Below, in pieces: positions 379 through 39,260 of a stretch of 64,000 nt of DNA; position 1 is the first letter of the stretch, and the number at the start of each line of letters is the position of its first letter. The notes beneath the pieces are model-generated. The model saw only the letters and a program-made list of their open reading frames with translations. It made no database searches and had not been told where the DNA came from. Made by a program: the position numbers and the translations under genes. The DNA is from an uncultured Chloroflexia bacterium. Its GTDB lineage: Bacteria; Chloroflexota; Limnocylindria; QHBO01. The stretch is taken from contig CAWGTN010000002.1 in NCBI GenBank assembly GCA_963825525.1, positions 992,001 through 1,056,000 on the forward strand, given 5' to 3'.

Positions 379-606
379 CTAGTCACCACCGAGCAACCGC
401 GTCAACACCTCATCACGGAGTCCGTCGGGAACTGGCGTGCCGCACCGCTCACAGTCAACCTCTTCCCACTCACCGTGGTCTTCGTACTCATAGGCCAGTT
501 GGGGCTGGCTGTCCTGATCGCCAATCGACCACCAGCGTTCTACCTGAGCCCGATAGGTACCTCTCCAGGCCTTGGCCCTACAGGCCGGGCAGCTGGGGGT
601 TGCCAT
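379..606 (-). CDS. Small zinc-ribbon-like protein (75 aa)
   Basis: GGAGG 10 nt before ATG at 606; CPAC and CERC Cys pairs. Confidence 0.6.
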   Translation of the reverse strand: MATPSCPACRAKAWRGTYRAQVERWWSIGDQDSQPQLAYEYEDHGEWEEVDCERCGTPVPDGLRDEVLTRLLGGD

Positions 607-929
607 CTGTCGAGTCCTCCGTCGCATACTGCGACTGAGGCTAGTTCAGAGCGAATGTCAAGGTTCAGGCCCGCTCCGCAATCGCACGTTCCAGACGGGG
701 AGCAATCGCCTGATAGACACTCGGCCGGCTAACCGCATCTTCTTGGGAGCTTGCGCTCCTCGAGCGTCAGTTGGCGACGATGATGCCAACGGCGAGCCCG
801 TAGCGGTCGGGCCGCACGTTCAGGGTCTCGTCGATGGCGCCTTGACGATCGTGCGCAGGTAATCGGCCATGCCGAGAAGTACTTGTTCAGCACGATCGTC
901 GGGATCAGCTCCTCGACAATCGGCTGCGC

Positions 930-1294
930 TCAGCTGAATTGTCCGCTACAGGTTGCATTCCCACAGTGGCGTGACCACAACAAATCGTAAATCGAACTGC
1001 TCGACACCGTGCTGGCGATGTTTTGCTGAGGTCCGTAACGCGTGACGTAGCAGACGCCTTCGAGATACCAGCGGACGACGACTTGGACGTTGTCACAGCT
1101 TGAGAGTTCGTCGGACTCTGCGCGGGCGTCATTATCCGTTTCTTCCTGGTGCAGCCAGTTCACGTCACAAGGGCCTGGATATTGATGAGGTCGCCGGCAT
1201 GACGGTGTCGGATGGCCCCGAGGGTGATCGTGCTGAGAACGAGAAGCGAGGTGAACGCAAGGAGCAGGGCTGTTGTCATTGAGCGTTTGGACAC
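930..1294 (-). CDS. Small secreted 4-Cys protein, paralog P1 (121 aa after repairing one indel near 1172)
   Basis: AAGGAGG then GTG at 1294; hydrophobic signal MSKRSMTTALLLAFTSLLVLSTITLGA, then IRHRH...CDVNWLH...RWYLEGVCYVTRYGPQQN...LLWSRHCGNATCSGQFS; homologous to P2 and P3. Confidence 0.8.
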
Positions 1295-1324
1295 CGAACT
1301 ACCTCCTTCATGCAGGTTTGCTTA

Positions 1325-1877
1325 TCACACCTTTTACTGCACCGCATTGACGCATTCACCCAGTCGTCCAGGGACCCACCTTGATCCTCAACAGCCTGGC
1401 GTAAGGATTGCGCTTCCTCGACATAGGACGGCATTTCGTACCGAGCTCGCGCAGGCATTCGGACAGATCGGCCAGAAGGGACTTCTCTGTAAGATCCGGA
1501 TGCAGTCCTAAGCGATAGCTCTCGGCGACATGGACGTAGAACTCGGCCTTACACTCGTAGACAATGGGAGACGGGTCGTTCTCCGGATCTTCTCCGCCAC
1601 CCACCGTTAGTGCGTCGATCTGACCGTACTCATCGAGCTCAAGGTCCACCACAGTAACGCCAGCGTCCTCGATGCAGCCGACATAGGCCAGGCGAGCTCG
1701 CTCGTGCTCCGCTTCGCTGACCGAACCGTCCTCGAGAATAGCGCGTTGGAATTCCGAGGTCTCAGGCAAGATCGAGCTCAGTCTTGACTGCCAATCATCG
1801 AGTTGAGTGCTCGGAGAGGGGATCGAATCGCCGCCGGAGCATGCCGCGAACAGGATGGTCGCGAAGCCGGCGGCCAT
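1325..1877 (-). CDS. Lipoprotein with Cys-containing helical repeats (frameshift near 1441; both ends approximate)
   Basis: Lipobox LFAAC; SEFQRAILEDGSVSEAEHERARLAYVGCIEDAG; continues after one indel as CLRELGYEMPSYVEEAQSLRQAVEDQGGSLDDWVNASMRCS. Confidence 0.7.
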
Positions 1878-1881
1878 CGCC

Positions 1882-2246
1882 TTAGGAGAGCTGTGCGGAA
1901 CACGTTGCGTTGCCGCAGTGGCGTGACATAGGATGCTGTAAATCTGAGCGGAGGTCACGCTCGAGAAGAGGTTCTGCTGCGGGCCGTAGCGTGTCACATA
2001 ACCGAGGTCCTGCATGTACCAGCGCACAACGGCCTGGACATTGGCGCAGTTGGCCAGTTCGTCTGTAGTAACCCAGGCGTCGTTATTGGTGTAATTGATG
2101 TGCTCCAAGCGATGTCGCACGAGTCCTGAATGTTCTGAAAATCGTCCCCATGAACGTGACGGACATGGGTTGCTGCGACGGTGTGGCCGCCAGGATCAAC
2201 AAGGTGACAAACACAATGGCGCGTGTCGCGGCCCCCGGAGTCTCAT
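1882..2246 (-). CDS. Small secreted 4-Cys protein, paralog P2 (122 aa after repairing four single-base indels)
   Basis: ATG overlaps the P3 stop (ATGA); reconstructed MRLRGAATRAIVFVTLLILAATPVAATHVRHVH...SCDIAWEHINYT...RWYMQDLGYVTRYGPQQNLFSSV...ILWSRHCGNATCSAQLS. Confidence 0.75.
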
Positions 2247-2625
2247 GACGGCTGAATGCATCCGGCGGCGATGCCGTCAGAGCCGCAATGTTGGGACCAC
2301 AGGATAGAGAGAACGTCTACCGAAGCAACGCTGCTGAAGAGATTCTGCTGAGGACCAACCACTGTCACGTAACCGAGGCCCCACTGATACCACCTGGCCC
2401 GTACCTCGACCACTGGCAACTGCTGCGCTCGTCCGTCCACGCGCTGGCCGAGTCGTCGGTGTAGTTGACATGCTTCCAACTGATGTCGCACGCCCCGCCG
2501 TTCAGATTGTTCACCATGCCACTGTGAGCATGCCTGACGGTAACGGCCGATACCGGCGCAGACAGAAGGGATAGGAGCAGGGCAAGCCCAGCAAGCGCGA
2601 CCGTAGCTTTGTGACGCCTCGACAT
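2243..2625 (-). CDS. Small secreted 4-Cys protein, paralog P3 (127 aa after repairing one indel near 2411)
   Basis: Signal peptide MSRRHKATVALAGLALLLSLLSAPVSA, then VTVRHAH...ACDISWKHVNYT...RWYQWGLGYVTVVGPQQNLFSSV...ILWSQHCGSDGIAAGCIQPS; joins ORFs 2365..2652 and 2243..2683. Confidence 0.8.
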
Positions 2626-2735
2626 GGCAACGTCTCGCTGCGGGTTCTCCAATTGCTATGGTGCCACTGCTGTCAAGTAGCATTTACTCGCGAGTTGAAT
2701 GTGCTCCTCTGGGGCCAGGATGCCCGGTACTGGCC

Positions 2736-3807
2736 CTAGCTTTCCTTCAGCTGCGAGAGGATGGAGCCTCGGCCGTGTACAAGTGACGCCAGTGGCCCTA
2801 CGATCAAGGCCAGCGCCAGCGCGCTACCTACGCTCCGCGACGCGAAGGCAATGTGGTCGACGGGCGGTAGGGATCCCACGGCAGCCTGGAGAGCCACGGA
2901 CCAAGCTAGGGCACACGCGGCAGCCAGCCGAATCACTAGGGCATGCTCGATCGCGCACATCACATATATCCCCACAATTCCGAGACCTAGCGAGCGGTAG
3001 AGCCCGATTTCGCGCCTGCGCCCAGGTACACGCGGCGAGTGCCATGACGATCAGCGCGGCCCCCACGGCCCAGCCACTTGCCGAGGGCCGCGAGCGCAAC
3101 TGTGCTTCGGGCTTCGCGGCCAAGCGCTCGTCCGGAAGCGCAGCGACTACTAGTGGATCGTTCTCCTCACGAAACCAGTAGCGCAGGGTCTCGTCAGCTG
3201 AGGGGCTCGGCGCCGCAAACTCGACCCAGCATTCCTCGACCAGCGCGTCCGGCGACAACGGCATGAGGATCCACCGATCGCCGGGAGCGGCACGCGCTTC
3301 GGTGTCTAGAACTGCACCAATTGGCATGGGTTCCACAGCGCCTGAGGCAATAAGTAGCCACCGACACTGAGGTGCAGCTCATCCGCTAGACCTGCGCCCA
3401 CCACTAGTGCATCTGGCAGCCGCGATCGGGTTGATGTCCGGTTGCTACACCGACGTACCCGCCAATGTACCCACCGAGCTGAATCCTCGTGCACGGTGCT
3501 GTCGTGAGGGTAGTGACCTCGTAAGGGTGACGCCCGGCACAGGTATGACGCCGTCAACCGCCCACATCGCCAAGCACGTGGACGCTCGAAGGCCATAGGA
3601 ACTGCTGACTATGTATGTCGCTTCGCCGTGACGGAGCCGCTAGCGATGCAAGTCTGCGTCGTCACTCGCCGCCCGCAGCTCAACGCTGCCGACGGCAAAA
3701 AGGAGCACTGAGACGATACTTGCGATCAGGAGCGAGCGCGGACCGCCGGCGGCGAGGTTGCGAATGCCTCGGACGCGAGCACGCGTACTGTCCATCCCAT
3801 TGGTCAA
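2736..3807 (-). CDS. ABC transporter permease (FtsX/MacB-like), broken by several frameshifts or stops
   Basis: Start overlaps the ATPase stop; pieces VLASEA(F)[48 protein letters not shown], and C-terminal TM segments ending SILSQLKES. Confidence 0.6.
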
Positions 3808-4429
3808 GCTCCGCCTTCTAGGACACCATCTCGAAGGCTGTAGCGGAAACTGCAGCGCTCCGCGAGATCAGAGTCGTGCGTAGCGATGATCAACGCGGAA
3901 TTCTGGGGGACAGAGCGAACCAGCAGGCTGGCGACGCGCGCCGACGTGCTGGCGTCGAGATTGCCGGTTGGCTCGTCGGCCAGGATCAGATCTGGTTCAC
4001 CCACGAGCGCTCGGGCGATGCAGACGCGCTGCATTTCGCCGCCCGAGAGCGTATCGGCACGACGGTGCCCAAAGCCAACAAGACCGACAGTCTCGAGGTT
4101 ACCTCGGATACGTCCTTCGAGCTCGACTACGGGAGCAGCGAGCGCATAGCACCGAAGTTGCACATGTCCTTGACGCTCCGTCGTGACAGCAGATTAGCCC
4201 CTTGATGGATATAGGCAATGGTGGGCTGGTCGCCCCGAGTGGTAACGCCAACGGATCCGCGCGTAGGGTGTTGTAGGCCTCCGATGATGCTTAGAAGCGT
4301 TGTCTTGCCAGACCCGGAGGGTCCCATGATCGCAGTCGAGCTGCCGGATGGGAAGACGATGGAGATATCTTGCAGCGACCACCGGTCACGGCCGTAGCGG
4401 TGCCACACCGACGTCAGCTCGACCGACAT
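3804..4429 (-). CDS. ABC transporter ATP-binding protein (LolD/MacB-type), one frameshift near 4165
   Basis: Walker [10 protein letters not shown], signature LSGGEMQR, Walker [16 protein letters not shown] switch. Confidence 0.9.
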
Positions 4430-5472
4430 GGCTGCGGCTCCAGGATCTCCATCGGATTCGCGAGGATCGGCGTGCCCGACTCAATACCGGTCCCCGATAC
4501 CTCGACATGCGTAAACGATCCAGCTCCGACCTCGACGGCGACCGGAGAGAATCCCGGGCCGTCTTGGACCCAAACGCAATACAGGCCGGCGGCGTCGGTA
4601 ATCAGCGCCGAAACCGGCACCGCAAGCGCGGTGACGCTGGTCGATGGCCGCGCAGTGGCCGCAACCGTCTCGCCCGCATCGACGACGCCTTCATATGCTT
4701 GCGGGTCTGCGAGGTAGATGCCATCCGATGACGTCACTAGCTCATAGCTGGATGACCCGATCTCAACCTCCCAATCGACCGTCGGGTTAAGCACCGGCGT
4801 CGTCCCGTCCTGACTCGCGAACGTCATAGAGACTAGTGGGGCCCGAGACTGCAGAATCGAAGATCCCGCCGACGGCGCCTGCTGCCCGGTCTCGATGTTG
4901 ATCTCAGCAATCTGAACCGCGGTGCCGGGCAACCATACGATCCAGGTTGGGTCGAATGGTTGGGCGGAGTCGCGGCCAAGCGACCTCGCCCACTCGGCAA
5001 CCGTGATGGACAGTTCCTGATCGAATATGGATGGCGTCGCAGACTCTGGCGGCTCGAGTCCGAGGGCTATCAGCAGCTTGCGTAGTTGAACGACGTCAGG
5101 ACCAGTTGTCCCTACAGAGAGTTCCCTCCAAAAGGGCGTGTCGGCCGCGATAGCCATGATCGTGATGCCCGAAACGGCGTATGCCGGATCACCTTGTTCG
5201 AGTTTGTCACCAACGCTAATGGGGACACCGGTGACGACTCCAGACGCGCCAGAGGCGTACACTGCGGGAGCATTGCCAAGTACCGGCGTTCCAACAAGGG
5301 GAATTGGCCGGTGCAATGAAATCTCGCCGACGCTAACGACTATCGGTTCGGGTCTGCTTGGCACGTTCGCCAGGCGCTCGTCTGCTGCAAACCGCAGGAG
5401 TGCGAGAAAGACGATGGGCGCGGCGAGGAAGAAGACGGCCACCAATGCCGTGTGCCGCCATGACGAACTCAT
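4414..5472 (-). CDS. Membrane-fusion/adaptor protein with peptidoglycan-binding-like insert
   Basis: N-terminal TM; GVVTGVPISVGD lipoyl-like motif; FWRELSVGTTGPDVVQLRKLLIALG PG-binding-like segment; LAVPVSAL beta-barrel motif; upstream of ABC ATPase. Confidence 0.8.
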   Translation of the reverse strand: MSSSWRHTALVAVFFLAAPIVFLALLRFAADERLANVPSRPEPIVVSVGEISLHRPIPLVGTPVLGNAPAVYASGASGVVTGVPISVGDKLEQGDPAYAVSGITIMAIAADTPFWRELSVGTTGPDVVQLRKLLIALGLEPPESATPSIFDQELSITVAEWARSLGRDSAQPFDPTWIVWLPGTAVQIAEINIETGQQAPSAGSSILQSRAPLVSMTFASQDGTTPVLNPTVDWEVEIGSSSYELVTSSDGIYLADPQAYEGVVDAGETVAATARPSTSVTALAVPVSALITDAAGLYCVWVQDGPGFSPVAVEVGAGSFTHVEVSGTGIESGTPILANPMEILEPQPCRSS

Positions 5473-5525
5473 CGTCAAATGGTACTTGCACGGTAAACAC
5501 AGCACGTAGGCGCGGAGACGATGCC

Positions 5526-6083
5526 GTGGACAAGCGCAGCAGACGGTCGCGGGCGCACGTCTCAACATGGCTCCTTGGCGTGGGATCGCTCGTAGGGCTT
5601 CTGGCCGTATTGGGTGTCATCGCGATGGTCAGCACTCTGGGGGAGCGAGCTGGTCAAGCCGTCTTGGCACCAACGGCCGCCTCACCAGCGCAATCGATTG
5701 GCGTACGGCCAACCGGCCTTCTGAAGAGCCAGACTCCCGTTCTGGGCCAAACCTGCGTAGTGGTTCGATTTGATGACGCCGCCTATCGGGACGGCGAGGT
5801 GCCGATCTGGCTATGGCGTTCGAACCAGCCGGACCTGTGCGGTGACCCGCTCGATGAGACGGTCGTCGCGAGTACGGCGATCCTCGAGCCGCGGCTTACG
5901 GCGGGGGGTTCCATGCGCTACGACGTGATGTTCGCGGTTGAGCGACCTGCCGGTTCTGGTCAAGATACATTCCTGAGCTTCTTGACCACCCGAGAACCAG
6001 GCGACCAGTTTCGGGCGATTGGGCCTGCTGACAGGAACACCCTCTTCGGTCCGCTCCCGCAATTCGAATCGGGAGACGGGTAG
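5526..6083 (+). CDS. Hypothetical membrane-anchored protein
   Basis: GGAG then GTG at 5526; basic N-terminus plus one TM helix; extracellular domain with two Cys. Confidence 0.6.
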   Translation: MDKRSRRSRAHVSTWLLGVGSLVGLLAVLGVIAMVSTLGERAGQAVLAPTAASPAQSIGVRPTGLLKSQTPVLGQTCVVVRFDDAAYRDGEVPIWLWRSNQPDLCGDPLDETVVASTAILEPRLTAGGSMRYDVMFAVERPAGSGQDTFLSFLTTREPGDQFRAIGPADRNTLFGPLPQFESGDG

Positions 6084-6267
6084 AGGTGATGACGGGCACT
6101 GACTCGCGCTGAGACTGGGCCCTTGGCGACGATGAATTCTCGGCTTGCCGCGGCAGAAGTCCGGGGGGAGACCTTGGCCTTGCTAGTCAGTAGTTGACTT
6201 GATATTGTCCGCGTAGCACACTGACGCCGTCCAGCAGCTCAGGAGAGCTCCGCGCTCCGTGAAGACA

Positions 6268-6318
6268 GGCAGCCTTCCAAGCTGCATGTCGCGGGTTCGA
6301 TCCCCGTCTCCCGCTCCA
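6268..6318 (+). mobile_element. 3' fragment of tRNA-Gly(TCC), probable attR of an integrated island
   Basis: GCAGC-CTTCCAA-GCTGC anticodon arm, GCGGG-TTCGATC-CCCGT T arm, CTCCCGC-T-CCA end; the 5' acceptor strand GCGGGAG and D arm are absent; base composition changes here. Confidence 0.85.
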
Positions 6319-6327
6319 CACCTCCAC

Positions 6328-29586: not shown

Positions 29587-30156
29587 TCACTCCTCGATGA
29601 TGGCGGCGAGCTTCTCGTCCAGCGAGCTGGCCGAGATCTGGCCGATCTGCCGTGCCACGATAGTCCCATCGCGGCCGATGAAGTAGGTCTCCGGCGCCCC
29701 GAGGATGCCATAGTCGGTCGCCACGCGTTCGCCCGGATCCATGGCCGCGGCCCAGGTCGCCCCGTTGCGGACCATGAAGTCGCGTGCGGCCTCCGAGCGG
29801 TCGCGATACACGATGCCGATCACCACCAGCCCCTCGCCGGCATGCCGTGCGGCGGCATCTCGCAGGAGGGGGAACTCCTCCACGCACGGACCGCACCAGC
29901 TCGCCCAGAAGTTCACGACCACGGGCCGGCCGCGCAGGTCGGTGAGTCGGATCGGGGTGCCATCAAGGTCGGTGACCGTGAAGTCGGGGGCGTTGCGGCC
30001 AATTGCCGTCGGCGTGCCGCCGCTTCCACGATTCACGAGGATCAGGCCGAGCACCGCGAGCATGGCGAGCGGCACCACGGCGGCGACGACCAGGATGGAC
30101 AGGCGGAGGCGCCGAAGGTCCGTCCGGCGCGGATCGGCGGCGGGTGCGCCGCTCAT
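29587..30156 (-). CDS. TlpA/ResA family thiol-disulfide oxidoreductase
   Basis: TM anchor, VNFWASWCGPC, GAPETYFI. Confidence 0.93.
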   Translation of the reverse strand: MSGAPAADPRRTDLRRLRLSILVVAAVVPLAMLAVLGLILVNRGSGGTPTAIGRNAPDFTVTDLDGTPIRLTDLRGRPVVVNFWASWCGPCVEEFPLLRDAAARHAGEGLVVIGIVYRDRSEAARDFMVRNGATWAAAMDPGERVATDYGILGAPETYFIGRDGTIVARQIGQISASSLDEKLAAIIEE

Positions 30157-30163
30157 CGGCTCT

Positions 30164-30511
30164 TCAGTGGGCGGCGGAATCGTCGTGCGAACCACGCTCC
30201 GTGTCGCGCCATTCGTGGTTCGCCGCTCGTACCCAGGCGATGACGCCGATGACGAGCACGAGCAACCCGGGAATCGCCAGGAAGGGGTTGGCCAGCTCCT
30301 CCTTGCCACGGAATGCCAGCCCGGCGCCCATGAGCGCGGCCGCCAGCGAGACGGCCACGGGCAGGAAGCTCGGCGCGGGCAGGTGAACGCCGCGCGGCGG
30401 AGTGGCCGGGCCGGATGACCCCCCGGCGCGCGCCGAGATCGCGAAGACAACACCGAGAATCACCAGGATTCCGATCCCGATGATGGCGTAGCCGATGGCG
30501 GAGTCGGGCAT
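30164..30511 (-). CDS. Cytochrome c oxidase subunit IV-like membrane protein
   Basis: VHLPAPSFLP motif, three TM segments, position after subunit III. Confidence 0.75.
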   Translation of the reverse strand: MPDSAIGYAIIGIGILVILGVVFAISARAGGSSGPATPPRGVHLPAPSFLPVAVSLAAALMGAGLAFRGKEELANPFLAIPGLLVLVIGVIAWVRAANHEWRDTERGSHDDSAAH

Positions 30512-30523
30512 GTCTCGGTGTCC

Positions 30524-31147
30524 CTAGCGCAGGAAGTAGATGGTTGAGAAGACGGCGATCCACACGACGTCGACGAAGTGCCAGTAGATGCTGACCGCCT
30601 CGACCGCGACGTGGTTCTTCGCGCTGAACTGGCCGCGCAATGATCGCGCGAGGATGATGGTTAGGCCCACGGCACCTCCAAAGACGTGCGCGCCGTGGAA
30701 GCCGGTGAGTGTGTAGAAGGTCGTCCCGAACACCCCGTCGGCGATTCCGAACCCGAGCTGGCTGTAGTCGTACAGCTGACCCATGAGGAACAGGATGCCG
30801 AGGACCAGGGTGATCCCGGTCCACATCTTGAGCTTGCCGGTGTCGCCACGGCGGATTGCCCACACGCCGAACTGCATCGTGAAGCTCGAGACAACGAGGA
30901 TCACGGTCAGCGCTCCGGCCAGTGCGAGCTCGAGCTCCGGGGCGCCCTCCGGCGGCCCCCAGTGGCCCGGCGTGGTCGCCTTGGCGTTGAAGTAGGTGGC
31001 AAACAGTCCGCCGAAGAACATCACCTCACTGGCGATGAACAGCAGCATCCCCAGCAGCGCGGTTGGCATCCCCGACCCGCCATGGGCGATGGCCGCGGCG
31101 GCCTCGTGCTCGCCGGCCGGGTGCGCCTGCATGGTGCGCGTGCTCAT
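30524..31147 (-). CDS. ctaE: Cytochrome c oxidase subunit III
   Basis: [27 protein letters not shown]. Confidence 0.96.
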
Positions 31148-32835
31148 ACCAGCGGATCCTCTCGTCGCTCGACGTCGTCCTCGGGCTCCTCCTCGAGATC
31201 CTTTGGACGCTCGGCCGCATGGCCATGACCGTGGGTGAGGAAGAAGAGCGGTCGCTCCGAGTGGATCGGCGGCAGGCGGTCGAAGTTGTAGGGCGGCGGC
31301 GGTGAGGAGGTCGCCCACTCGAGCGTGTTGCCCTCCCACGGATCATCGCCGGCCGGCTCACCGTTGATGAGCGTCGCGATCACGTTGATGAGGAACGGAA
31401 TGATGCTGACCGCGATCATGAAGGCACCGACGGTCGAGGCGATGTTCAGCAGGGTCCATCCCGCATCGGGGCTGTAGTCGCTGATGCGTCGCGGCATGCC
31501 GTCCAGGCCGAGCTGGTGCATCGGGAAGAAGGCCAGGTTGAAGCCGATGAAATGGATCCAGAAGTGGATCTTGCCGAGCGGCTCGTTGAGCTTGCGACCG
31601 GTCATCTTCGGGAACCAGTAGTACGTGGCAGCGAAGACGCCAAACACCGACCCGCCGAAGAACACGTAATGCAGGTGCGCCACCACGAAGTACGTGTCCT
31701 GGACGTGGAAGTCGATCGGCGGTGAGGCAAGCATCACGCCGCTGATGCCGCCGATGAGGAACATCGACAGGAAGCCCAGGGCGAAGAGCATGGGCGTCGT
31801 GAAGATCAGCTTGCCGCGCCACAGCGTTGCGAGCCAGTTGAACATCTTGATCCCGGTCGGAATGGCGATGAGTGCGGTCATGAAGCTGAAGAAGGGCAGG
31901 AACACCGAACCGGTGGTGAACATGTGGTGGGCCCAGACGCTGAAGCTCAGCAGGCCGATGCCGACCGTGGCGAACACGAAGGCCCGGTAGCCGAACAGTG
32001 GCTTGCGGCTGAACACCGGGAGGATCTCGCTTACCACGCCCATCGCCGGAAGGATGACGATGTAGACCTCGGGGTGGCCGAAGAACCAGAAGATGTGCTG
32101 CCACAGGACCGGGTTGCCGCCGACGCTGGGATCGAAGAACGAGCCGCCGTAGTTGCGGTCGATGAACAGCGCGATGAGGCCCGCGGTCAGGACCGGGGTG
32201 GCGAGCAGGATGAGGACCGCTGTCACGAGCACCGTCCATACGAAGATCGGCATCCGGAACAGGGTCATGCCCGGCGCGCGCATCTTGAAGATCGTGGCGA
32301 TGAAGTTCACCGCGCCCAGGATCGAGGCGGTGCCGACCAGGGTCAGGCCGATGACCCACAGGTCCGTGCCGACACCGGGCGAGTACTGGTCACTCGTGAG
32401 CGGCGAGTAGGCCGTCCAACCCTCGGCCGCCGCCCCACCGAACAGGTACCCGCTGAAGATGAGTCCGCCGCCGAGCGGCAGCAGCCAGAAGCTCAGGGCG
32501 TTGATGCGCGGGAAGGCCATATCCGGAGCGCCGAGCTGGAGCGGAACGATGTAGTTTCCGAAGCCCGACAGCGCGGGGATGATGAACAGGAACAGCATGA
32601 TCGTGCCGTGCATCGTGAACGCCTGGTTGTAGGTGTTCTGATCCAGGAACTGCATGCCAGGGACGGCGAGCTCGGTCCGGATGACGAGGGCAAGGATGCC
32701 GGCCGCGAAGAAGAACAGGAAGCTGTTCAGGATGTACAGGATCCCGATCTTCTTGTGGTCGACGGTCGTCAGCCAGTCGATGACCCAGGAGCGTCGAATG
32801 GAACCGGCGCGGGGGTCAAGAGTCGTGGTTGCCAT
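31144..32835 (-). CDS. ctaD: Cytochrome c oxidase subunit I (A1 type)
   Basis: DHKKIG, GHPEVY, WAHH, VAHLHY. Confidence 0.98.
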
Positions 32836-32855
32836 GGATCTGTGCTCGCGCTCCG

Positions 32856-33917
32856 CTATTCGGTGACCGTCACGTCGCCCACCATCGCCTGTGGGTGGAC
32901 GTCGCAGATGAACCTGAAATCGCCGGCGGGTAGTGCGGGGACGTTGTACACGATCTCGCCCGCCGTGTTCAGGATCTCGCCGTTGAAGAGCGCCTCGCCG
33001 CCGTCATAGATCGCGACGTTGTGCGGGACGTCCTCCTGGTTCTCGAAGGCGATGCAGAACGCCGTGTCGGCCGGAACCTCGAACTCGCTGATGTCGAAGG
33101 CAATGTCATTGGCCTTGATCTCGATGGTCGTCGCGCAGTCTCCACCGCCGCCCGGTGGTGGCGGAGGCGGCGAGCCACTGGCCAGTGCGGCCATGTACGC
33201 GTCGTAGTCCGCCCGGGTCATGGCGTTGACCACGAACTTCATGTCCGCGTGGGAGGTCCCGCAGAACTCGGCGCACTGGCCGGCGTAGGTCCCGGCCTCG
33301 GTGATGGTGAACTCGAGCTCGTTGTCGCGTCCGTTGTTGCCCAGGTCGATGAGGTCGCGCTTGATGAGGAACTGCGGCACGTAGAAGGCGTGGTTGACGT
33401 CCACCGAGTTCAGCACCAGGCGCACCGGCTCGTTGATCGGCACCGCCAGCACGGGCGGCTCGCCGCCCCGCGGCCCGACCTTGGTGCCATCCTCGTAGAC
33501 GAACGTCCAGTTCCACTGGAAGCCGTCGACCTGGATCGTGACGCCGGGATTGTCGCTCCGGGCCTCGACGTCACCGAGAGTGCTCATGCTGAACCCGAAG
33601 AGAACGAGCACGATCACGGTCGGGATGATCGTCCAGATGATCTCGACCAGCGTGTTGCCGTGGTGCTGCTCGGGCAACGTCTCGTCGCCCGGCTGCCGCC
33701 GGTAGCGAACGATCGCGTAGATGATGAAGCCCTCGACGCCCACGAACACGATCCCGGCCAGTACGAGCACGATGACGTACAGGTTGAAGACCTCGCGCCC
33801 GGTCTCGGTCACCGGCTGCGGCGGGAGCATGCACCCGGCGAGCAGGGCGATCAGCAGGGAGGGGGCTGCGGTACGAATGATCGTCCGCAGCCGAGATCGG
33901 GCCACCGTTCGTTGCAT
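32856..33917 (-). CDS. ctaC: Cytochrome c oxidase subunit II with C-terminal cupredoxin domain
   Basis: LAGC lipobox, [25 protein letters not shown] (CuA); Pro/Gly linker; HN...CDVHPQAM type-1 Cu ligands. Confidence 0.95.
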
Positions 33918-34064
33918 CAGATGGTCTCGAGGCTCCTGGTTCAACCGACACGTCGCTGGCGCGGAGGTTTTCAGGCACGCACGCTCAGGCGGGCTGACGG
34001 CGGCACGGAGCACATTGTAGCGAAGGCCGTGGCCGCGGTGCGACCCGCAACGACGGCCCGTGGG

Positions 34065-35030
34065 TCAGGCGGCTCCGTCCAGGTCAGGGCAGGCCGGATC
34101 CTCGTTCGGCAGCAGCGGCCGCGGCAGGACGACGAAGCGCCGATCGCCATCGTCCGTCCAGCGCGTCATCTGGTTCGAGGCGGCGAGCTCGGCCAGCCAC
34201 GCAGCGCCCAGCTCGCCATCCACGACGCCACAGCGCGTCCCGTTGCCGAAGAACGAGACCTCGTCGCCGAATGCCGCCGGATCGTCGTCGGTGGGCCACT
34301 CTCGAACCTGTTCCGGGAGATCGCCGCCCTCGACCTGGTCGCCGGTCGCGTCGCGGACGTAGAGGCGGAATGACTCAGGCTCATACGGCTGCCAGCCCTC
34401 GGCCTCCCACGAGCCGTCGGGCAGCCACGTGTCCAGGGTCATGAGTCCGTCATTCAGCAGCCCCAGGATCCGATGCGCCTCGAGCTCGCCCGAGGTGATG
34501 CCCGGCGCCGGCTCCATCCCGGGGATGAGAGCGCCAAGTCCGTAGATGCTGACGGTGACGTCCTGGCCGCCGGCATTGAGGATGAAGAGGGTGTCGGCCG
34601 CATCGGCCACCATGCTCTGCGCGCCGCGAAGGTCGAGGTCGCTGGTGAACAGGTTCGTCTCCTCGACCGATCTCAGGACCGCCTGGATGCCATCCTCGGT
34701 AAGCGTGCGCTCGATGAGCGCGGGATATGCCGGTCCCGGGAACTCGAGCGTCTGCGGCCCCTGCATGATCACGCGTCCGTCGCCGAGCAGCACGAACATC
34801 GGGAGCCGCGTGGCAAGGAACTCGACCGGCACGAACCCGCCGGCCGAGTCAAGGATCAGGATGGCTTCGCTCCCGCCCGGATGCTCGATCCCGCCGGTCC
34901 CGCCAGACCCACCGGTTGGGTCAGGGCCGGGAGACTCCCCGGTGGGAGACGGATCCGGCGAGCTGCCGGGTGCCGCACACGCCGAAATTGTCAGGAGCAC
35001 CACGAAAAGGCCGGGCATCGTTCGTTTCAT
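34065..35030 (-). CDS. Hypothetical lipoprotein
   Basis: ISAC lipobox, Pro/Ser/Gly linker, GGFVP, DGRVI, RPLLP. Confidence 0.85.
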   Translation of the reverse strand: MKRTMPGLFVVLLTISACAAPGSSPDPSPTGESPGPDPTGGSGGTGGIEHPGGSEAILILDSAGGFVPVEFLATRLPMFVLLGDGRVIMQGPQTLEFPGPAYPALIERTLTEDGIQAVLRSVEETNLFTSDLDLRGAQSMVADAADTLFILNAGGQDVTVSIYGLGALIPGMEPAPGITSGELEAHRILGLLNDGLMTLDTWLPDGSWEAEGWQPYEPESFRLYVRDATGDQVEGGDLPEQVREWPTDDDPAAFGDEVSFFGNGTRCGVVDGELGAAWLAELAASNQMTRWTDDGDRRFVVLPRPLLPNEDPACPDLDGAA

Positions 35031-35090
35031 GGCCGCTCTGACGCCGGCGGGGGCCGGGCGGTTCCAACGAATTGCGGCGAGAATGAGCCG

Positions 35091-36050
35091 ATGCGTCGCG
35101 CGCTCCCGTTTCCGGTCCTCGGTGTCCTGCTCGCCCTGCCCGGAGCGGCGCTGGCCCACGGGCTGGCGACGCCGGCGCCCACGCTGCCCGGCGTGCTGCT
35201 GGAATGGAGCTTCGACCCCCTCGCCGTCATCGCCCTGGTTGCTGCGGGGGCGGCCTACCGCTGGGCCACGGTCCGGGTTCGCCGGAGTCACCCTGGGAAT
35301 CCGCACCCTGCCCACCGATCGTGGCTGTTCGGGGCCGGCCTCCTGACCATCGGCCTTGCCCTCCTCTCACCCATCGAGGCGTACGAGGGCACGCTGTTCA
35401 GCGTGCACATGGTCCAGCACATGCTCCTCGAGCTGGTGGCGGCCCCACTGTTGCTGGCCGGGGCGCCGATCACGCTGACCCTGCGCGTCGCCAGCCCGGG
35501 CGTCCGGCGCCGGTTGCTGGCCGTGCTCCGGAGTCGCGCGGTGCACGTGATCTCGTTCCCGGTGGTCGCCTGGCTCCTGTTCGCCGCCGTGAACTGGGGC
35601 TGGCACTTCAGCTCGCTCTACAACGACGCGCTCGAGAACGTGGCGCTCCACTACGTCCAGCACGCCACCTTCCTGGGTGCCGCCCTGCTCTTCTGGTGGC
35701 CGGCCATCGGCGCCGATCCGTCACCCTGGCGGCTTCCCCACCCCGTCCGGCTGCTCTACCTCTTCCTTGCGATGCCGCAGAACTCGTTCCTCGGCGTCGC
35801 GCTCATGTCGGCCTCCACCGTGCTCTACCCGCATTACGTGACCAACGTCCGAGACTGGGGCATGACGCCGCTCGAGGACCAGGCATTGGGCGGCGTCCTC
35901 ATGTGGGTGGTCGGCGACCTGGCGTTCCTTGCGGCGATGATGCTGGTCGTCGTCGGGTGGATGCGGCACGAGGATCGGCGAACCGCACGGATGGACGCGC
36001 GCCTTGCCGCCGAGCGGAGGAGCGTGCCGGGCACTCGGTATACCGAGTAG
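35091..36050 (+). CDS. ctaG: Cytochrome c oxidase assembly protein (Caa3_CtaG family)
   Basis: LFSVHMVQHMLL, WH, DQALGGVLMW. Confidence 0.92.
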   Translation: MRRALPFPVLGVLLALPGAALAHGLATPAPTLPGVLLEWSFDPLAVIALVAAGAAYRWATVRVRRSHPGNPHPAHRSWLFGAGLLTIGLALLSPIEAYEGTLFSVHMVQHMLLELVAAPLLLAGAPITLTLRVASPGVRRRLLAVLRSRAVHVISFPVVAWLLFAAVNWGWHFSSLYNDALENVALHYVQHATFLGAALLFWWPAIGADPSPWRLPHPVRLLYLFLAMPQNSFLGVALMSASTVLYPHYVTNVRDWGMTPLEDQALGGVLMWVVGDLAFLAAMMLVVVGWMRHEDRRTARMDARLAAERRSVPGTRYTE

Positions 36051-36086
36051 AACTCGCGCGAGTGGGAAGCCCCGAGGCGGGGGCGC

Positions 36087-37889
36087 TCAGGCCAGCGGCA
36101 GACGCACCAGTGCATCGGCCGCGACCGCGGCGAACAGCAGGGTCAGGTACGTGATCGAGTAGCGGAACAGGCCGATGGCTGCCCGCCCGCTCCCGGCATC
36201 GGCGCGAAGCCGGAGCGCCTGCACCAGGAAGAGGCCACCGAGCACGACCGCCGCCACCAGGTAGACCCAGCCCATGCCGGCGGCCGGCAGCAGGAGCAGG
36301 CTGACGCCGATGAGCAGCACGGTGTACAGCACGATCTGGCGCGCCGTCTCGGCCTCCCCACGGACAACGGGCAGCATCGGGACATTCGCCGCGGCGTAGT
36401 CGCCGCGGTAGCGCAGCGCAAGCGCCCAGAAGTGCGGCGGTGTCCAGTAGAAGACGATGGCGAACAGCACGAACGCCGGCAATCCGACCTCGCCGGTCAC
36501 GGCGGCCCAGGCCACCAGCACCGGAACACAGCCCGCCGCACCGCCGATCACGATGTTCTGTGGAGTCGTCCGCTTCAGCCACATCGTGTAGACGAAGACG
36601 TAGAAGGCGGTGGCGCTCATCGCCAGCAGGGCGCTCAGCAGGTTGACGGTGAGCAGCAGGAAGACGAATGCCAGCACGCTCAGGCCGATGCCGAACCAGA
36701 GCGCGGCCGATGGATTCACGGCGTGCCGCGGCAAAGGCCGGTGCCGGGTCCGGCGCATGACGTCGTCGATATCGCGGTCCACGTACATGTTGATGGCGTT
36801 CGCTCCGCCGGCGGCCAGCGTCCCGCCGATCACCACGGCCGCCATCAGCCACAGCGAGGGGATGCCGCCCTGGGCGAGGACCATGGTCGGGACGGTCGTC
36901 ACCAGCAACAGCTCGATGATCCGCGGCTTGGTCAGGGCCACGTAGCTGCGGACGGTGTCCATCGGCCCTGATTGACGCTCGTCCTCGCGCGCGCCGTGCG
37001 GGGCCTCGGCCGGTCGCAGGCGTCGGGTCGAGAGCAGCAGCCAGACGGCGATCCCCCACATCGCGGCGCCGACCGCGAGGTGCGGGACCACGAAGACGGC
37101 CGAGAGCCGAGAGATGACGTTCAGTCCGCCCAGGGCAACCTGGACGACGATGAGTACCGCCAGCCAGCGGCTCAGGCTGCGCGGGCCGGGCGCGGCGGTC
37201 GCTGCCCAGACCGCAAGCGCCGTCCACGCCACGAGCGCCGCGACCACCACGCTGATCGCCCGATGCACGAGCTGAATTGCCTGGCGCGGGTCGCCGATCG
37301 CCGGTGCCAGCGAACCGTTCATGAGCGGGAAGTCGGAGAAGGCCAGCCCCGCGGCGTGGCCGGTGACCCAGGATCCGACGAGCATCTGGACGAAGATCGC
37401 GAGGGCGGTGACTGCCACGAGCCGCGTCAGCCCCGGTCGTGCATGGGCCCTCGGCATCGGTCCGTGGACCGCACGCTCGGCAATGAAGATCGTGGCCGCC
37501 AGGACGGTGAGGGCCATGGCGAGGTGCGCGGTGACGAGCTCGGCGGCGAGGCCCTGGAGCACGACGGCGGCGCCGAGCAGCGACTGTACGATGACCAGCA
37601 CCCCCGCCACGATGGCGGCGCCGAGGAGTGGACGATCTCGTCGGCGACGGGTGAAGACGGTGATGAGGCCGACCGCGCCGACCAATGGACCCACGAACAC
37701 CGCGGCCGTGAGTCGGTGCGAATGCTCGATCCAGGCGTTGAGGTCGGCCGGGGGCAGCCAGTCACCGAAGCACAGCGGCCAGTCGGGGCACCCGAGACCC
37801 GAGTCCGTGGCACGCACCAGCCCACCGACGGCGATCAGGACGAATGTTGCGGCAGCAGCCGCCACCGCCAATTTGGCGAATCGGGTCAA
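36087..37889 (-). CDS. ctaB: Heme A synthase - heme O synthase fusion (CtaA-CtaB)
   Basis: GLGCPDWPLC and EHSHR (CtaA); LTKPRI, DRDIDDVMRRTRHRPL, WTPPHFWAL (CtaB). Confidence 0.95.
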   Translation of the reverse strand: MTRFAKLAVAAAAATFVLIAVGGLVRATDSGLGCPDWPLCFGDWLPPADLNAWIEHSHRLTAAVFVGPLVGAVGLITVFTRRRRDRPLLGAAIVAGVLVIVQSLLGAAVVLQGLAAELVTAHLAMALTVLAATIFIAERAVHGPMPRAHARPGLTRLVAVTALAIFVQMLVGSWVTGHAAGLAFSDFPLMNGSLAPAIGDPRQAIQLVHRAISVVVAALVAWTALAVWAATAAPGPRSLSRWLAVLIVVQVALGGLNVISRLSAVFVVPHLAVGAAMWGIAVWLLLSTRRLRPAEAPHGAREDERQSGPMDTVRSYVALTKPRIIELLLVTTVPTMVLAQGGIPSLWLMAAVVIGGTLAAGGANAINMYVDRDIDDVMRRTRHRPLPRHAVNPSAALWFGIGLSVLAFVFLLLTVNLLSALLAMSATAFYVFVYTMWLKRTTPQNIVIGGAAGCVPVLVAWAAVTGEVGLPAFVLFAIVFYWTPPHFWALALRYRGDYAAANVPMLPVVRGEAETARQIVLYTVLLIGVSLLLLPAAGMGWVYLVAAVVLGGLFLVQALRLRADAGSGRAAIGLFRYSITYLTLLFAAVAADALVRLPLA

Positions 37890-38008
37890 TTCGGGTACCT
37901 CTCGCCGCTCGCGGGGCATCGCCGAGCGGGCGACGCCATGATAGCCGCCGCGGTCGGGGGTCACCATCGGCGCGGCGTGGCGCGATGCAGGACCGCTACG
38001 ATGCCGCC

Positions 38009-39260
38009 ATGAGTGACGCGCGCGTGGTCCAGGTCAACGTCTCGGGCGGTGGCGTCCCGAAGCTTCCGGTCGCCGTCGGCCCGGGTGACGACATACGGCG
38101 TCGAGGGCGATCGGCAACAGGCCGACACGGTGCACGGCGGGCCGCATCGTGCCGTCACGGTGCTCGGGATCGAGGCCATCGAGCGATTGCGCGCGGAGGG
38201 CCACCCGATCGCTCCGGGGACCACGGGCGAGAATCTCACGACCTCGGGCTTCGACGTCTCGATGCTGCCGGTCGGCACCCGCCTGATGGTCGGTGCCGAG
38301 CTGGTCCTCGAGGTCTCGCAGCCGGCGAGCCCGTGCCGCACCATCCGGAATTCGTTCATCGGCGGCCGATTCGGGCGACTCTCGATCAAGACGAACCCGG
38401 GGGACAGCCGGATGTACGCGCGCGTGCTACGAGAGGGGACGGTGCAGCCAGGCGATCCCATCCGGATCGAGCGGCAGGCGCCCGGCCAGGCGACGTCCGC
38501 CGCCGCATTCGGGTTGGCCGATCGGCTCGACCAGGCTGAGCGGGAAGCGTCCGTGATCTTCTGGCAGTCCGCCATCGCTGCCGGCATCGACGTGGATCTG
38601 CTCGACGACGGCGAGATCGCAGTGGCCGCGACGCCGTCCCTTCCGGGCGCCATCTTCAACCAGGCGCTCGGGTTCGCCCATCTCCCGAACCTCGTTGATC
38701 GCGCGCGAGATCACTTCAGGCGGCGAGGGGTGGATGGCTGGCTGCTGGCCGATGATCCACCCTGGGACAACGCGCGAGCCGAGGCGACGCTGGCCCGCTA
38801 TGTCCTCACCTCCCCACTCGAGGCCCCAACGCCGGGCGGACTCACGATCCGCGAGCTCGCTCGTCGTGAGATCGGCCCTTGGGCCAACGTGATCGCGGAG
38901 GCGTCCGAGCTGCCGAGCGACGTCGCCGACGCGTGGCGCCGGCTCGAGAGCCACATCGCGGCGGCTGCCCACCATCATCGATTCGTGGCGGAGGTGGACG
39001 GGGTGGCTGTCGGCGCCGGCAGCCTCCACATCCACCATCAGCTTGGCTGGCTGCGCGCCGGATCGGTACTTCCCTCGCACCGCGGGCAGGGCGTGCAACG
39101 CGCGCTGATCGCCGGTCGGGCGGACCACGCGCGCCGGCTCGGCGCGGACGCCATCGGCGCATCGGCAGTCGAGGGCGGCGCATCGGCCGCCAACCTCGAG
39201 CGGCTCGGATTCGAGCGGATCGGGACCCGGCGCAGCTACATGGTGCCGGCGGGCGCCTGA
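38009..39260 (+). CDS. MOSC domain - GNAT acetyltransferase fusion (frameshift near 38078)
   Basis: GGVPK, HGGPHRAV, GENLT, PCRTI; C-terminal VLPSHRGQGVQRALI and NLERLGF. Confidence 0.85.

What the first reader, a model, noticed from the sequence alone, without database searches (positions are those of the whole stretch)
930..5472. Island-borne system: three paralogous small secreted 4-Cys proteins, a lipoprotein and a MacAB-like ABC transporter
Seen: after repairing single-base indels, one minus-strand run reads adaptor > ATPase > permease > P3 > P2 > lipoprotein > P1. P1-P3 (121, 122 and 127 aa) each have a Sec-type signal peptide and share RHxH...CD[IV]xWxH...DExxxCxxV...RWY...YVTxxGPQQN..S.V.S....[IL]LWSxHCG...C..S. 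I do not recognise this family. Established: lactococcin 972-type loci pair a Sec-exported small protein with an ABC permease and ATPase, and MacB/FtsX-type systems often give antimicrobial-peptide immunity or sensing. Inference: an undescribed family of disulfide-bonded secreted bacteriocin-like or signalling proteins, diversified by duplication, with a cognate immunity or receptor module. The function is not shown by the sequence.
Basis: partly seen in the sequence, partly recalled or inferred. Interest (0 to 1): 0.85.

Follow-up and report, generated by a model that had tools for sequence, protein, structure and literature searches.

The report
Secreted protein, lipoprotein and ABC pump island
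A small mobile island in a soil bacterium carries three copies of an unnamed secreted protein, a partner lipoprotein predicted to grip it, and a MacB-like pump, most likely a self-protected antibacterial weapon.

Summary
The minus strand of window 930-5460 reads adaptor > ABC ATPase > FtsX-type permease > P3 > P2 > lipoprotein > P1. All genes but the adaptor are broken in the window. Short-read contigs of four soil metagenome runs carry extra bases at those breaks, and taking their letters gives whole frames. The breaks are therefore most likely consensus errors.

P is a real, very rare, unnamed family: 16 clusters among 5.8 billion, with no Pfam, NCBIfam or PDB match. The lipoprotein is a second unnamed family of similar rarity. 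All 3 outside loci keep P, lipoprotein, adaptor, ATPase and permease together.

A complex model places the lipoprotein on P at the near-invariant GPQQN turn: score 0.85, best control 0.02. The module sits on an ~8.6-kb tRNA-Gly island with an integrase.

My preferred reading (about 0.5) is a Sec-exported bacteriocin-like protein with NisI-like lipoprotein and pump self-protection. P is acidic and is not a lactococcin 972 member. A non-toxic partner complex of a type VII ABC machine remains a serious rival (about 0.27).

The parts
930..1294 (-). P1, a secreted 4-Cys protein of 121 aa once the break near 1173 is read through
   Evidence: The short-read contigs put in one C behind 1173, which gives a 121-aa ORF.
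1276..1930 (-). Lipoprotein with lipobox LFAAC and four further conserved Cys. One break lies between 1384 and 1513, and both ends are uncertain.
   Evidence: The intact relative P0025 (180 aa) comes from another assembly. Contig records 2 and 18 each have one gap here.
1880..2240 (-). P2, the paralog with four frame breaks in the window (near 1926, 2105, 2185 and 2225)
   Evidence: The contigs carry an insertion at 1926, and record 19 (1936-2272) has three gaps.
2243..2625 (-). P3, 127 aa once the break near 2409 is read through. An intact, nearly identical copy is P0002.
2739..3807 (-). FtsX/MacB-type permease, heavily broken in the window: five indel sites and in-frame stops
   Evidence: tblastn with the L010 and L011 permeases. 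A 356-aa ORF appears with the contigs' letters. Relatives show four hydrophobic helices with a long loop after the first. The Pfam FtsX match in L010 is E 3.3e-5.
3804..4429 (-). ABC ATPase of the FtsE/LolD/MacB kind, with one break near 4164
   Evidence: A 208-aa ORF appears with the contigs' letters.
4414..5460 (-). Membrane-anchored adaptor (membrane-fusion-protein type), unbroken
   Evidence: It aligns over residues 2-344 of the 345-aa L011 adaptor. There are weak matches to RND_mfp/CzcB models and to MexJ, CusB and MacA chains. Its 3 outside relatives show a weak PG_binding_1 stretch.
5358..6083 (+). Island ORF of 241 aa with no family, lying between the adaptor and the right island end
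   Evidence: It has no relative in L009-L012.
6268..6319 (+). Right island end: a 52-nt direct repeat equal to the 3' part of tRNA-Gly(TCC). The whole tRNA lies 2.2 kb before the window start, at C2:989693-989768.
   Evidence: Contigs that run on into a whole tRNA 5' half at 6268 appear, table 7.

Best explanation
This is a horizontally moving five-part module. P is exported by a signal peptide and folds outside the cell into a ~10-kDa, all-beta protein, probably with two disulfides. The adjacent lipoprotein, tethered to the outer face of the membrane, grips P by adding a strand to P's sheet at the near-invariant GPQQN turn. The adaptor, ATPase and FtsX-type permease form a type VII (MacB-like) ABC machine that works on the outer face of the membrane.

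Most likely P is an antagonistic, bacteriocin-like protein released against competitors. The lipoprotein would sequester it, as NisI does, and the pump would clear it from the producer's membrane and wall zone, as NisFEG, YknXYZ, AS-48EFGH and the lactococcin 972 Orf2-Orf3 pair are thought to do. The island here has tripled the effector and kept one lipoprotein.

Shown: the gene content, the conserved linkage, the matching rarity of the two families, and the island. Predicted by a model: P-lipoprotein binding. Inferred: toxicity, immunity, and what the pump acts on.
For: 1. Linkage. All 3 outside loci (L009, L010, L011) have P directly followed by the lipoprotein, with stop and start overlapping or 3-4 nt apart. 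All three also have adaptor, ATPase and permease beside them.
2. Co-distribution. There are 16 P clusters and 13 strong lipoprotein clusters among 5.8 billion. Five longest-contig sizes (117271, 149478, 31277, 8943, 4313) appear in both lists. This rests on contig size only and is indirect.
3. Predicted binding. The score was 0.85, 0.80 and 0.85 in three runs against a best control of 0.02. That mark was reached by 116 of 157 solved complexes and 2 of 215 mismatched pairs. The runs agree in at least 89% of contacts and the partner's pLDDT is at least 88. Lipoprotein residues 104-116 pair with P residues 84-96. Neither family has a solved relative, so the pass is unlikely to come from memory.
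4. Mobility and patchiness. The element has a 52-nt tRNA-Gly repeat and a Phage_integrase fragment at E 2.5e-11. P was found in 2 of 301 genomes of the class and 2 of 401 of the phylum, own genome included, and in 0 of 33 other genomes of the genus. Module GC is 5-6 points below the flanks in all 3 outside loci and is also low here.
5. Effector multiplied, binder single: three paralogs at 51-55% identity.
6. Precedents, read as passages. MacAB-TolC exports the Sec-exported, two-disulfide enterotoxin STII; YknXYZ protects against the cell's own SDP toxin; AS-48EFGH is MacB-like (PMC5985334). NisI lipoprotein acts with the NisFEG pump (PMC8538875). The orf2-orf3 pair of lactococcin 972 is a putative ABC transporter for immunity (PMC4055356).
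Against: - No activity is shown by any result.
- Mature P is acidic: pI 4.4-5.6, net charge -3 to -8, in 15 of 15 members. By recall, lactococcin 972 and most membrane-directed bacteriocins are cationic.
- The lipoprotein is also very acidic, -14 to -25.
- P is strongly conserved (mean column identity 54%). Predicted interface positions are no more conserved than the rest: 0.66 against 0.67.
- Three effectors share one binder.
- P's second conserved cluster (H34, W50, H52, Y55, E66) lies outside the predicted interface and could be a ligand or metal site.
- No regulator, processing or lysis gene is conserved beside the module.
- Fold matches are all within noise, best Z 5.9.
Confidence: 0.5

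Rival explanations
1. P is not a weapon. P and the lipoprotein form a stable extracytoplasmic partner complex of a type VII ABC mechanotransmitter, as EnvC does for FtsEX, TesA for YbbAP and LolA for LolCDE. The conserved His/Trp/Tyr/Glu face of P would capture a ligand or a metal ion, or act on the envelope. The ABC machine would power extraction or release.
For: - High-confidence predicted P-lipoprotein binding through a conserved turn.
- A second conserved surface, [H/D]xH plus W-E-H and E66, lies outside that interface.
- Both proteins are acidic.
- The ATPases of L009 and L010 score best with FtsE and LolD models.
- The C-terminal domain of the adaptor matches CzcB-type models and CusB and SilB chains weakly.
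- Type VII ABC systems commonly work with periplasmic partner proteins (PMC12646458, abstract only; PMC5985334, passages).
Against: - The module is mobile and extremely patchy, which does not fit a core envelope function.
- P is tripled with one lipoprotein.
- The metal site is read from sequence alone, and its first His is not invariant: D in 2 and S in 1 of 15 members.
- The adaptor matches are generic for the fold.
Confidence: 0.27
2. P is harmless cargo. After Sec export it is pushed out through the wall zone by the adaptor-pump, as MacAB-TolC does with STII or the Aat system with dispersin. It would serve as a surface coat, adhesin or signal, with the lipoprotein acting as a holding chaperone at the membrane.
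For: MacB-type pumps handle Sec-exported, disulfide-bonded proteins up to about 10 kDa (PMC5985334, passages). Mature P is 95-100 aa with 4 Cys. P lies first in the operon in 2 of 3 outside loci.
Against: No outer-membrane duct gene lies in any of the 4 loci. By recall, Chloroflexota are generally held to lack an outer membrane. No receptor or regulator is conserved nearby.
Confidence: 0.1
3. In this genome the module is a decayed remnant: the frameshifts and stops are real mutations and nothing is made.
For: As deposited, the window has about 16 indels and several in-frame stops across six of the seven genes. The integrase is also in pieces. P0001, a 78-aa call for P1 from another assembly, is also short.
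Against: - Contigs from four runs agree with each other at the breaks and restore whole frames.
- The differences have a non-biological, one-strand signature. In 28 of 35 listed substitutions the contigs have C, and 9 of 12 listed indels are an added C or CC.
- They are confined to 839-4788. The island DNA next to it (four contigs within 4694-6184; the stretch 5451-5945 rests on X2 alone) shows 1 difference in contigs of 519, 268, 239 and 958 nt.
- Genome-wide, 83% of contig C2 lies in long open frames.
Confidence: 0.05

Closest known systems
Lactococcin 972 locus (lcn972-orf2-orf3) of Lactococcus lactis pBL1
   Same: Both have a signal-peptide-exported, unmodified small protein encoded beside an ABC permease and ATPase held to give immunity (PMC4055356, passages). 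The ATPases here score 137-145 bits on TIGR03608, the lactococcin 972 ABC model. Both proteins are all-beta sandwiches (2lgn at Z 4.4, rmsd 2.8, 63 aligned).
   Different: No sequence membership: 0 of 15 match PF09683 at E<=10. P has 4 Cys and about 96 residues against a 66-residue solved chain, and is acidic. The permease has four helices and is FtsX-like, with no NCBIfam model matched. An adaptor and a lipoprotein are added. TIGR03608 stays under its cut-off of 254.85 bits.
Lantibiotic self-protection: NisI/SpaI lipoprotein plus NisFEG/SpaFEG ABC transporter
   Same: A surface lipoprotein binds the cell's own product, and an ABC transporter expels it from the membrane. Both are needed for full immunity (PMC8538875, passages). 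Here a lipoprotein is predicted to bind P and an ABC system is always adjacent.
   Different: There is no homology: the lipoprotein has no Pfam or NCBIfam match and no fold match. P is a folded protein, not a modified peptide. The pump is MacB/FtsX-like with an adaptor, whereas by recall LanFEG is of another ABC type.
MacB-family (type VII ABC) systems: MacAB-TolC, YknXYZ, AS-48EFGH, FtsEX-EnvC, LolCDE-LolA, YbbAP-TesA
   Same: The trio of adaptor, FtsE/LolD-like ATPase and four-helix permease with a large outer loop is shared. These machines act on substrates or partners outside the membrane, including Sec-exported disulfide-bonded toxins and the cell's own toxins (PMC5985334; PMC12646458, abstract).
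   Different: The permease is very divergent: FtsX scores 24.3 bits against a cut-off of 25.5 in 1 of 2 scanned, and there is no PDB sequence match. The adaptor carries a weak PG_binding_1-like stretch. The constant partners here are two families with no name.

Membership tests
Lactococcin 972 bacteriocin family (Pfam PF09683) | Sequence match to the family model | tested here: not met
   0 of 15 P members match it at E<=10. The window fragments have no Pfam match. The Atlas's nearest named cluster is this family at 0.75, which is a lead only.
Lactococcin 972 bacteriocin family (Pfam PF09683) | Small beta-sandwich fold like 2lgn | tested here: inconclusive
   The model has pLDDT 66. The match to 2lgn has Z 4.4, rmsd 2.8 and 63 aligned residues, at rank 16, below the usual noise level of Z 7-8.
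Lactococcin 972 bacteriocin family (Pfam PF09683) | Linked ABC ATPase of the TIGR03608 group and a large multi-helix immunity protein (the latter feature is recalled) | tested here: not met
   TIGR03608 scores 145 and 137.5 bits, under its cut-off of 254.85 and level with FtsE and LolD. The permeases of L010 and L011 match no NCBIfam model and have four helices.
Type VII (MacB/FtsX-like) ABC system with adaptor | ATPase nearest to FtsE/LolD/MacB | tested here: met
   The top models for the L010 and L009 ATPases are FtsE, LolD, L_ocin_972_ABC, YbbA and DevA (E 1e-36 to 1e-45), all under their equivalog cut-offs. The window halves give the same result.
Type VII (MacB/FtsX-like) ABC system with adaptor | Permease with the FtsX domain and a four-helix topology with a long loop between helices 1 and 2 | tested here: inconclusive
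   FtsX matches at E 3.3e-5, 24.3 bits against a cut-off of 25.5, in L010, and not at all in L011. Hydropathy in L011 shows one helix at 23-41 and three at 246-348. There is no PDB sequence match. No structure was predicted.
Type VII (MacB/FtsX-like) ABC system with adaptor | Membrane-fusion-protein adaptor (N-terminal helix, lipoyl and beta-barrel domains) | tested here: met
   There are weak but consistent matches to RND_mfp and CzcB models, and to MexJ, CusB, SilB and MacA chains and lipoyl domains. Biotin_lipoyl_2 matches at E 7e-4. An N-terminal helix is present.
LanI-type immunity lipoproteins (NisI/SpaI) | Lipobox lipoprotein encoded beside the product it binds | tested here: met
   The lipobox L-[AG]-[AG]-C is present in 11 of 11 full-length members. 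The gene is adjacent to P in 4 of 4 loci. Binding is predicted but not measured.
LanI-type immunity lipoproteins (NisI/SpaI) | Homology to NisI/SpaI | tested here: not met
   None of the 12 members has a meaningful Pfam family at E<=10 and P0025 has no NCBIfam match. Neither Foldseek nor VIA lists NisI or SpaI; not being listed does not exclude them. The system works like this family but is not a member.
tRNA-integrated genomic island | A tRNA gene at one end, a direct repeat of its 3' part at the other, a tyrosine integrase beside it, and deviant base composition | tested here: met
   tRNA-Gly(TCC) lies at C2:989693-989768, and a 52-nt exact repeat lies at window 6268-6319. PF00589 matches at E 2.5e-11 at C2:990618-991022. 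GC is 58-64% against 69%.

The most novel reading that the evidence does not exclude
P and its lipoprotein are a new effector-immunity pair: a new class of Sec-exported, disulfide-bonded, acidic protein bacteriocin. It would be neutralised by a strand-pairing lipoprotein and a type VII ABC pump, carried on small integrative islands, and so far seen only in Chloroflexota. This would be the first such antagonism system described for that phylum. Two full-text searches found no description of it.
Probability: 0.4. Interest if true: 0.7.

Novelty: new variant of a known kind. Interest (0 to 1): 0.55.

Why it matters
Two protein families with no name, no solved relative and no recognisable fold turn out to be constant neighbours. 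They are predicted with high confidence to bind each other, and they always sit beside a MacB-like machine.

If P is a weapon, this would be a new kind of protein bacteriocin and a new immunity fold, in a phylum whose interbacterial antagonism is, to my knowledge, little studied.

If P is not a weapon, it adds a new partner pair to the type VII ABC machines, whose outside partners (EnvC, LolA, TesA) define what they do.

There is also a practical lesson. This assembly has a 4-kb patch of one-strand consensus errors, so gene callers see only fragments of the system.

Tried and rejected
- A word-index search with the P1 fragment found only itself. The exhaustive profile search was needed.
- Two giant repeat proteins, P0003 (3764 aa, 16 stretches) and P0007, matched the three-paralog profile. 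The match rests on an NND...E...VNVQV stretch that only the island paralogs have, not the wider family, so I treat it as chance or composition.
- Fold searches with the P model: Foldseek found nothing at E<=0.001. VIA's best matches were 9hkj 'Formosin D' (Z 5.9), SIX8 (5.8), the MspA rim (5.5) and CrdA (4.9), all inside the tool's stated noise. A literature search for 'formosin' gave only plant diterpenoids. Tendamistat was not among the 50 rows shown, which does not exclude it.
- Fold searches with the lipoprotein model (pLDDT 80) gave nothing above Z 5.1.
- DNA search of 30 relatives with the whole locus found only ABC-ATPase motif matches. This tally includes the unpublished genome G006, and no claim here rests on it.
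- A scan of viral contigs found no relative of P.
- The promoter and terminator scan was no better than shuffles.
- No conserved extra neighbour was found. The flanks of the outside loci hold unrelated genes: a Mutator transposase, a Hint-domain protein, rhodanese, MsrA, GNAT, and an ECF sigma factor.
- Predicted interface residues are not more conserved than the rest, so conservation gives no independent support for the interface.
- Earlier findings of this scan: three look-ups returned nothing.
- Calls that gave no answer: 12, 18, 42 and 45.

Full report
WHAT IS IN THE SEQUENCE

Translating the minus strand of window 800-5700 in three frames, and running tblastn with intact relatives, gives one run of seven genes:
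- an adaptor (4414-5460),
- an ABC ATPase (3804-4429),
- a permease (2739-3807),
- P3 (2243-2625),
- P2 (about 1880-2240),
- a lipoprotein with lipobox LFAAC (about 1276-1930),
- P1 (930-1294).

Each has an N-terminal hydrophobic leader ending in a small-x-small site; I judged this by eye because SignalP was not available. The leaders begin with RR or RK, so Tat export is not strictly excluded. Over their unbroken C-terminal pieces P1 is 55% identical to P2 and 51% to P3. No further copy exists in the 2.58-Mb, 4-contig genome.

Only the adaptor is unbroken in the window. P1, P3 and the ATPase each have one frame break. The lipoprotein has one, P2 has four, and the permease has five indel sites plus in-frame stops.

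THE BREAKS ARE MOST LIKELY CONSENSUS ERRORS

Four soil metagenome runs of one study hold this DNA as Logan contigs. A Nextera-type adaptor tail in one loose end points to short reads.

Laid on window 700-6300, these contigs carry one or two extra bases at 839, 1173, 1879, 1926, 2409, 3020, 3340, 3437, 3519, 3759 and 4164. One base is left out at 1021, in one of the two runs that cover it. Four more indels were not printed. The gap counts of records 2, 3, 18 and 19 place three of those in P2 and one in the lipoprotein.

The differences have a signature that mutation would not give. In 28 of 35 listed substitutions the contigs read C where the window reads A (15), T (7) or G (6). Nine of the 12 listed indels are an added C or CC on the plus strand.

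They are also confined to 839-4788. The island DNA directly to the right (four contigs within 4694-6184; the stretch 5451-5945 rests on run X2 alone) shows 1 difference in contigs of 519, 268, 239 and 958 nt.

Taking the contigs' letters at the listed places gives single minus-strand ORFs of 121 aa (P1), 136 aa (P3, 127 from its ATG), 356 aa (permease) and 208 aa (ATPase), next to the unchanged 384-aa adaptor frame. These lengths match the relatives. An intact P3 (P0002, 127 aa) and an unbroken copy of the lipoprotein (P0025, 180 aa, which may itself end early) exist in another assembly on an 8,943-nt contig.

Elsewhere the assembly is sound: 83% of contig C2 lies in stop-free frames of at least 150 codons with high GC3. 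Only 17 of 403 five-kb bins fall under 45%. That measure also penalises low GC.

One result does not fit neatly. P0001, a 78-aa call for P1 in that other assembly, is also short, and I could not see why.

TWO UNNAMED FAMILIES

An exhaustive profile search of 1.84 billion representatives gave 7 hits. Five are true relatives of 78-131 aa and two are giant repeat proteins that I reject. A profile search of 5.8 billion clusters gave 16 proteins, 14 of them not from this genome, all 119-138 aa.

The family alignment (15 rows, mean column identity 54%) shows:
- a leader;
- a mature N-terminus of the form SHIxHYHSG;
- four invariant Cys;
- invariant H34, W50, H52, Y55 and E66;
- a near-invariant YGPQQN turn.

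No member has a meaningful Pfam match at E<=10. P0002 has no NCBIfam match, and the profile has no PDB sequence match at E<=10.

The AlphaFold model is all-beta with seven strands but only moderately confident, at pLDDT 66. The best fold matches (Z 5.9, 5.8 and 5.5; lactococcin 972 at Z 4.4) lie inside the tool's stated noise. Mature P is acidic in all 15 members, with pI 4.4-5.6.

The lipoprotein is a second family of the same rarity. It has 13 strong hits, five invariant Cys including the lipobox Cys, pI 4.1-4.5, and no Pfam, NCBIfam or fold match. Its model (pLDDT 80) is helical with one beta hairpin.

THE LINKAGE IS CONSERVED

The only three outside loci I could fetch are two Chloroflexota MAG contigs (L009, L010) and one metagenome contig (L011). 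All three have P directly followed by the lipoprotein, and all three have adaptor, ATPase and permease beside them. The five genes lie on one strand in L009 and L011. In L010 the pump genes converge on the P-lipoprotein pair.

The ATPases score best with FtsE, LolD, the lactococcin 972 ABC model, YbbA and DevA, all under their cut-offs. The permeases have one N-terminal helix, a loop of about 200 residues and three C-terminal helices, and one of two reaches FtsX at E 3.3e-5. The adaptors match membrane-fusion-protein models and chains weakly and carry a weak PG_binding_1-like stretch. Together these identify a divergent type VII (MacB-like) ABC system.

Flanking genes differ between loci. The module's GC is 5-6 points under its flanks in all three.

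THE ISLAND

An intact tRNA-Gly(TCC) lies at C2:989693-989768, 2.2 kb before the window. Its last 51 bases plus one recur exactly at window 6268-6319. Directly after the tRNA lie pieces of a tyrosine recombinase, matching Phage_integrase at E 2.5e-11. Some metagenome contigs run from 6268 leftwards into a whole tRNA 5' half, as an empty site or a second tRNA copy would (table 7).

The element is therefore about 8.6 kb, with 58-64% GC against 69% for the genome.

P is patchy. It was found in 2 of 301 sampled genomes of the class and 2 of 401 of the phylum. In both cases these are this genome and G087, which is the genome of L010. It was found in none of the 33 other sampled genomes of the genus. 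In L010 a Mutator-family transposase lies right before P.

PREDICTED BINDING

The complex model of the mature lipoprotein (P0025, residues 32-180) with mature P3 (P0002, residues 28-127), each given with its family alignment, scored 0.85, 0.80 and 0.85. The best of three controls scored 0.02. That mark was reached by 116 of 157 solved complexes and 2 of 215 mismatched pairs, and these counts hold only roughly because my own alignments were used. The runs agree in at least 89% of contacts, and the partner's pLDDT is at least 88.

The core of the interface is antiparallel strand pairing of lipoprotein 104-116 with P 84-96, which includes the GPQQN turn. This is a model's confidence, not a measurement. 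Since neither family has a solved relative, memory of a known complex is unlikely. Interface positions are not more conserved than the rest.

HOW IT MOST LIKELY WORKS

I commit, at about 0.5, to a self-protected secreted effector. P is exported and oxidised, then acts on competitors. The lipoprotein holds any P that stays at the producer's surface. The adaptor-pump clears P from the membrane and wall zone.

The precedents, read as passages:
- NisI lipoprotein plus the NisFEG pump (PMC8538875);
- YknXYZ against the cell's own SDP toxin, AS-48EFGH, and MacAB-TolC exporting the Sec-exported, two-disulfide toxin STII (PMC5985334);
- the lactococcin 972 operon with its ABC pair (PMC4055356).

Mobility, patchiness and the multiplication of P with one binder fit a weapon. 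The acidity of P, its high conservation and its second conserved His/Glu face do not.

The main rival (about 0.27) is a non-toxic partner complex of a type VII ABC machine, in the manner of FtsEX-EnvC or YbbAP-TesA (PMC12646458, abstract only), perhaps binding a metal or ligand. Harmless cargo (0.1) and true decay (0.05) follow.

COMPARISON AND NOVELTY

The system works like lactococcin 972 loci and like lantibiotic LanI plus LanFEG immunity, but it is a member of neither, because the sequence tests were not met. Its transporter belongs, divergently, to the MacB/FtsX kind.

Two full-text searches, for the GPQQN motif and for Chloroflexota with bacteriocin, ABC transporter and lipoprotein, found no description. 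That is a narrow test of 'not in print'.

I rate it a new variant of a known kind, with interest 0.55. It is real and conserved, and two unknown families are tied together by a strong predicted interface. It is also very rare, and no function is shown.

Noticed in passing
window 839-4788, and C2:989991-991022 (before the window): A patch of consensus errors with a one-strand signature. The plus-strand C is lost or read as A or T: 28 of 35 substitutions, and 9 of 12 listed indels. The neighbouring DNA agrees with the short-read contigs. The integrase before the window is also in several frames. The cause is not known.
   Followed up: partly
window 6268-6319 and C2:989693-989769: A 52-nt exact direct repeat of the 3' part of tRNA-Gly(TCC) bounds an ~8.6-kb element. 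A contig of 8,943 nt in another assembly carries P1, P3 and the lipoprotein, and is about the size of the element.
   Followed up: partly
window 5358-6083 (+): A 241-aa ORF inside the island has no Pfam or NCBIfam match and no relative in the outside loci. Its long form overlaps the 5' end of the adaptor frame on the other strand.
   Followed up: partly
window 379-627 (-): An 82-aa ORF with two CxxC pairs (zinc-ribbon-like) lies inside the island and has no family match.
   Followed up: no
L010:8460-9746 (-) and L010:14114-15070 (-): A Mutator-family transposase (E 2.4e-73) lies directly before the P gene of the Chloroflexota MAG. A lipoprotein-like protein with a Hint domain lies just beyond the pump genes.
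   Followed up: no
C2 bins starting at 30001-40001, 185001, 490001, 840001-845001, 1070001, 1385001-1395001, 1410001, 1505001-1510001 and 2010001: Other 5-kb bins of the contig have under 45% cover by long, high-GC3 open frames. They may be further islands, RNA operons or error patches.
   Followed up: no
P0003 (3764 aa) and P0007 (2967 aa): Giant repeat adhesin-like proteins matched the three-paralog profile through a repeated NNDGW..E..VNVQVEV stretch. I judged this chance or composition, but did not test it by structure.
   Followed up: partly
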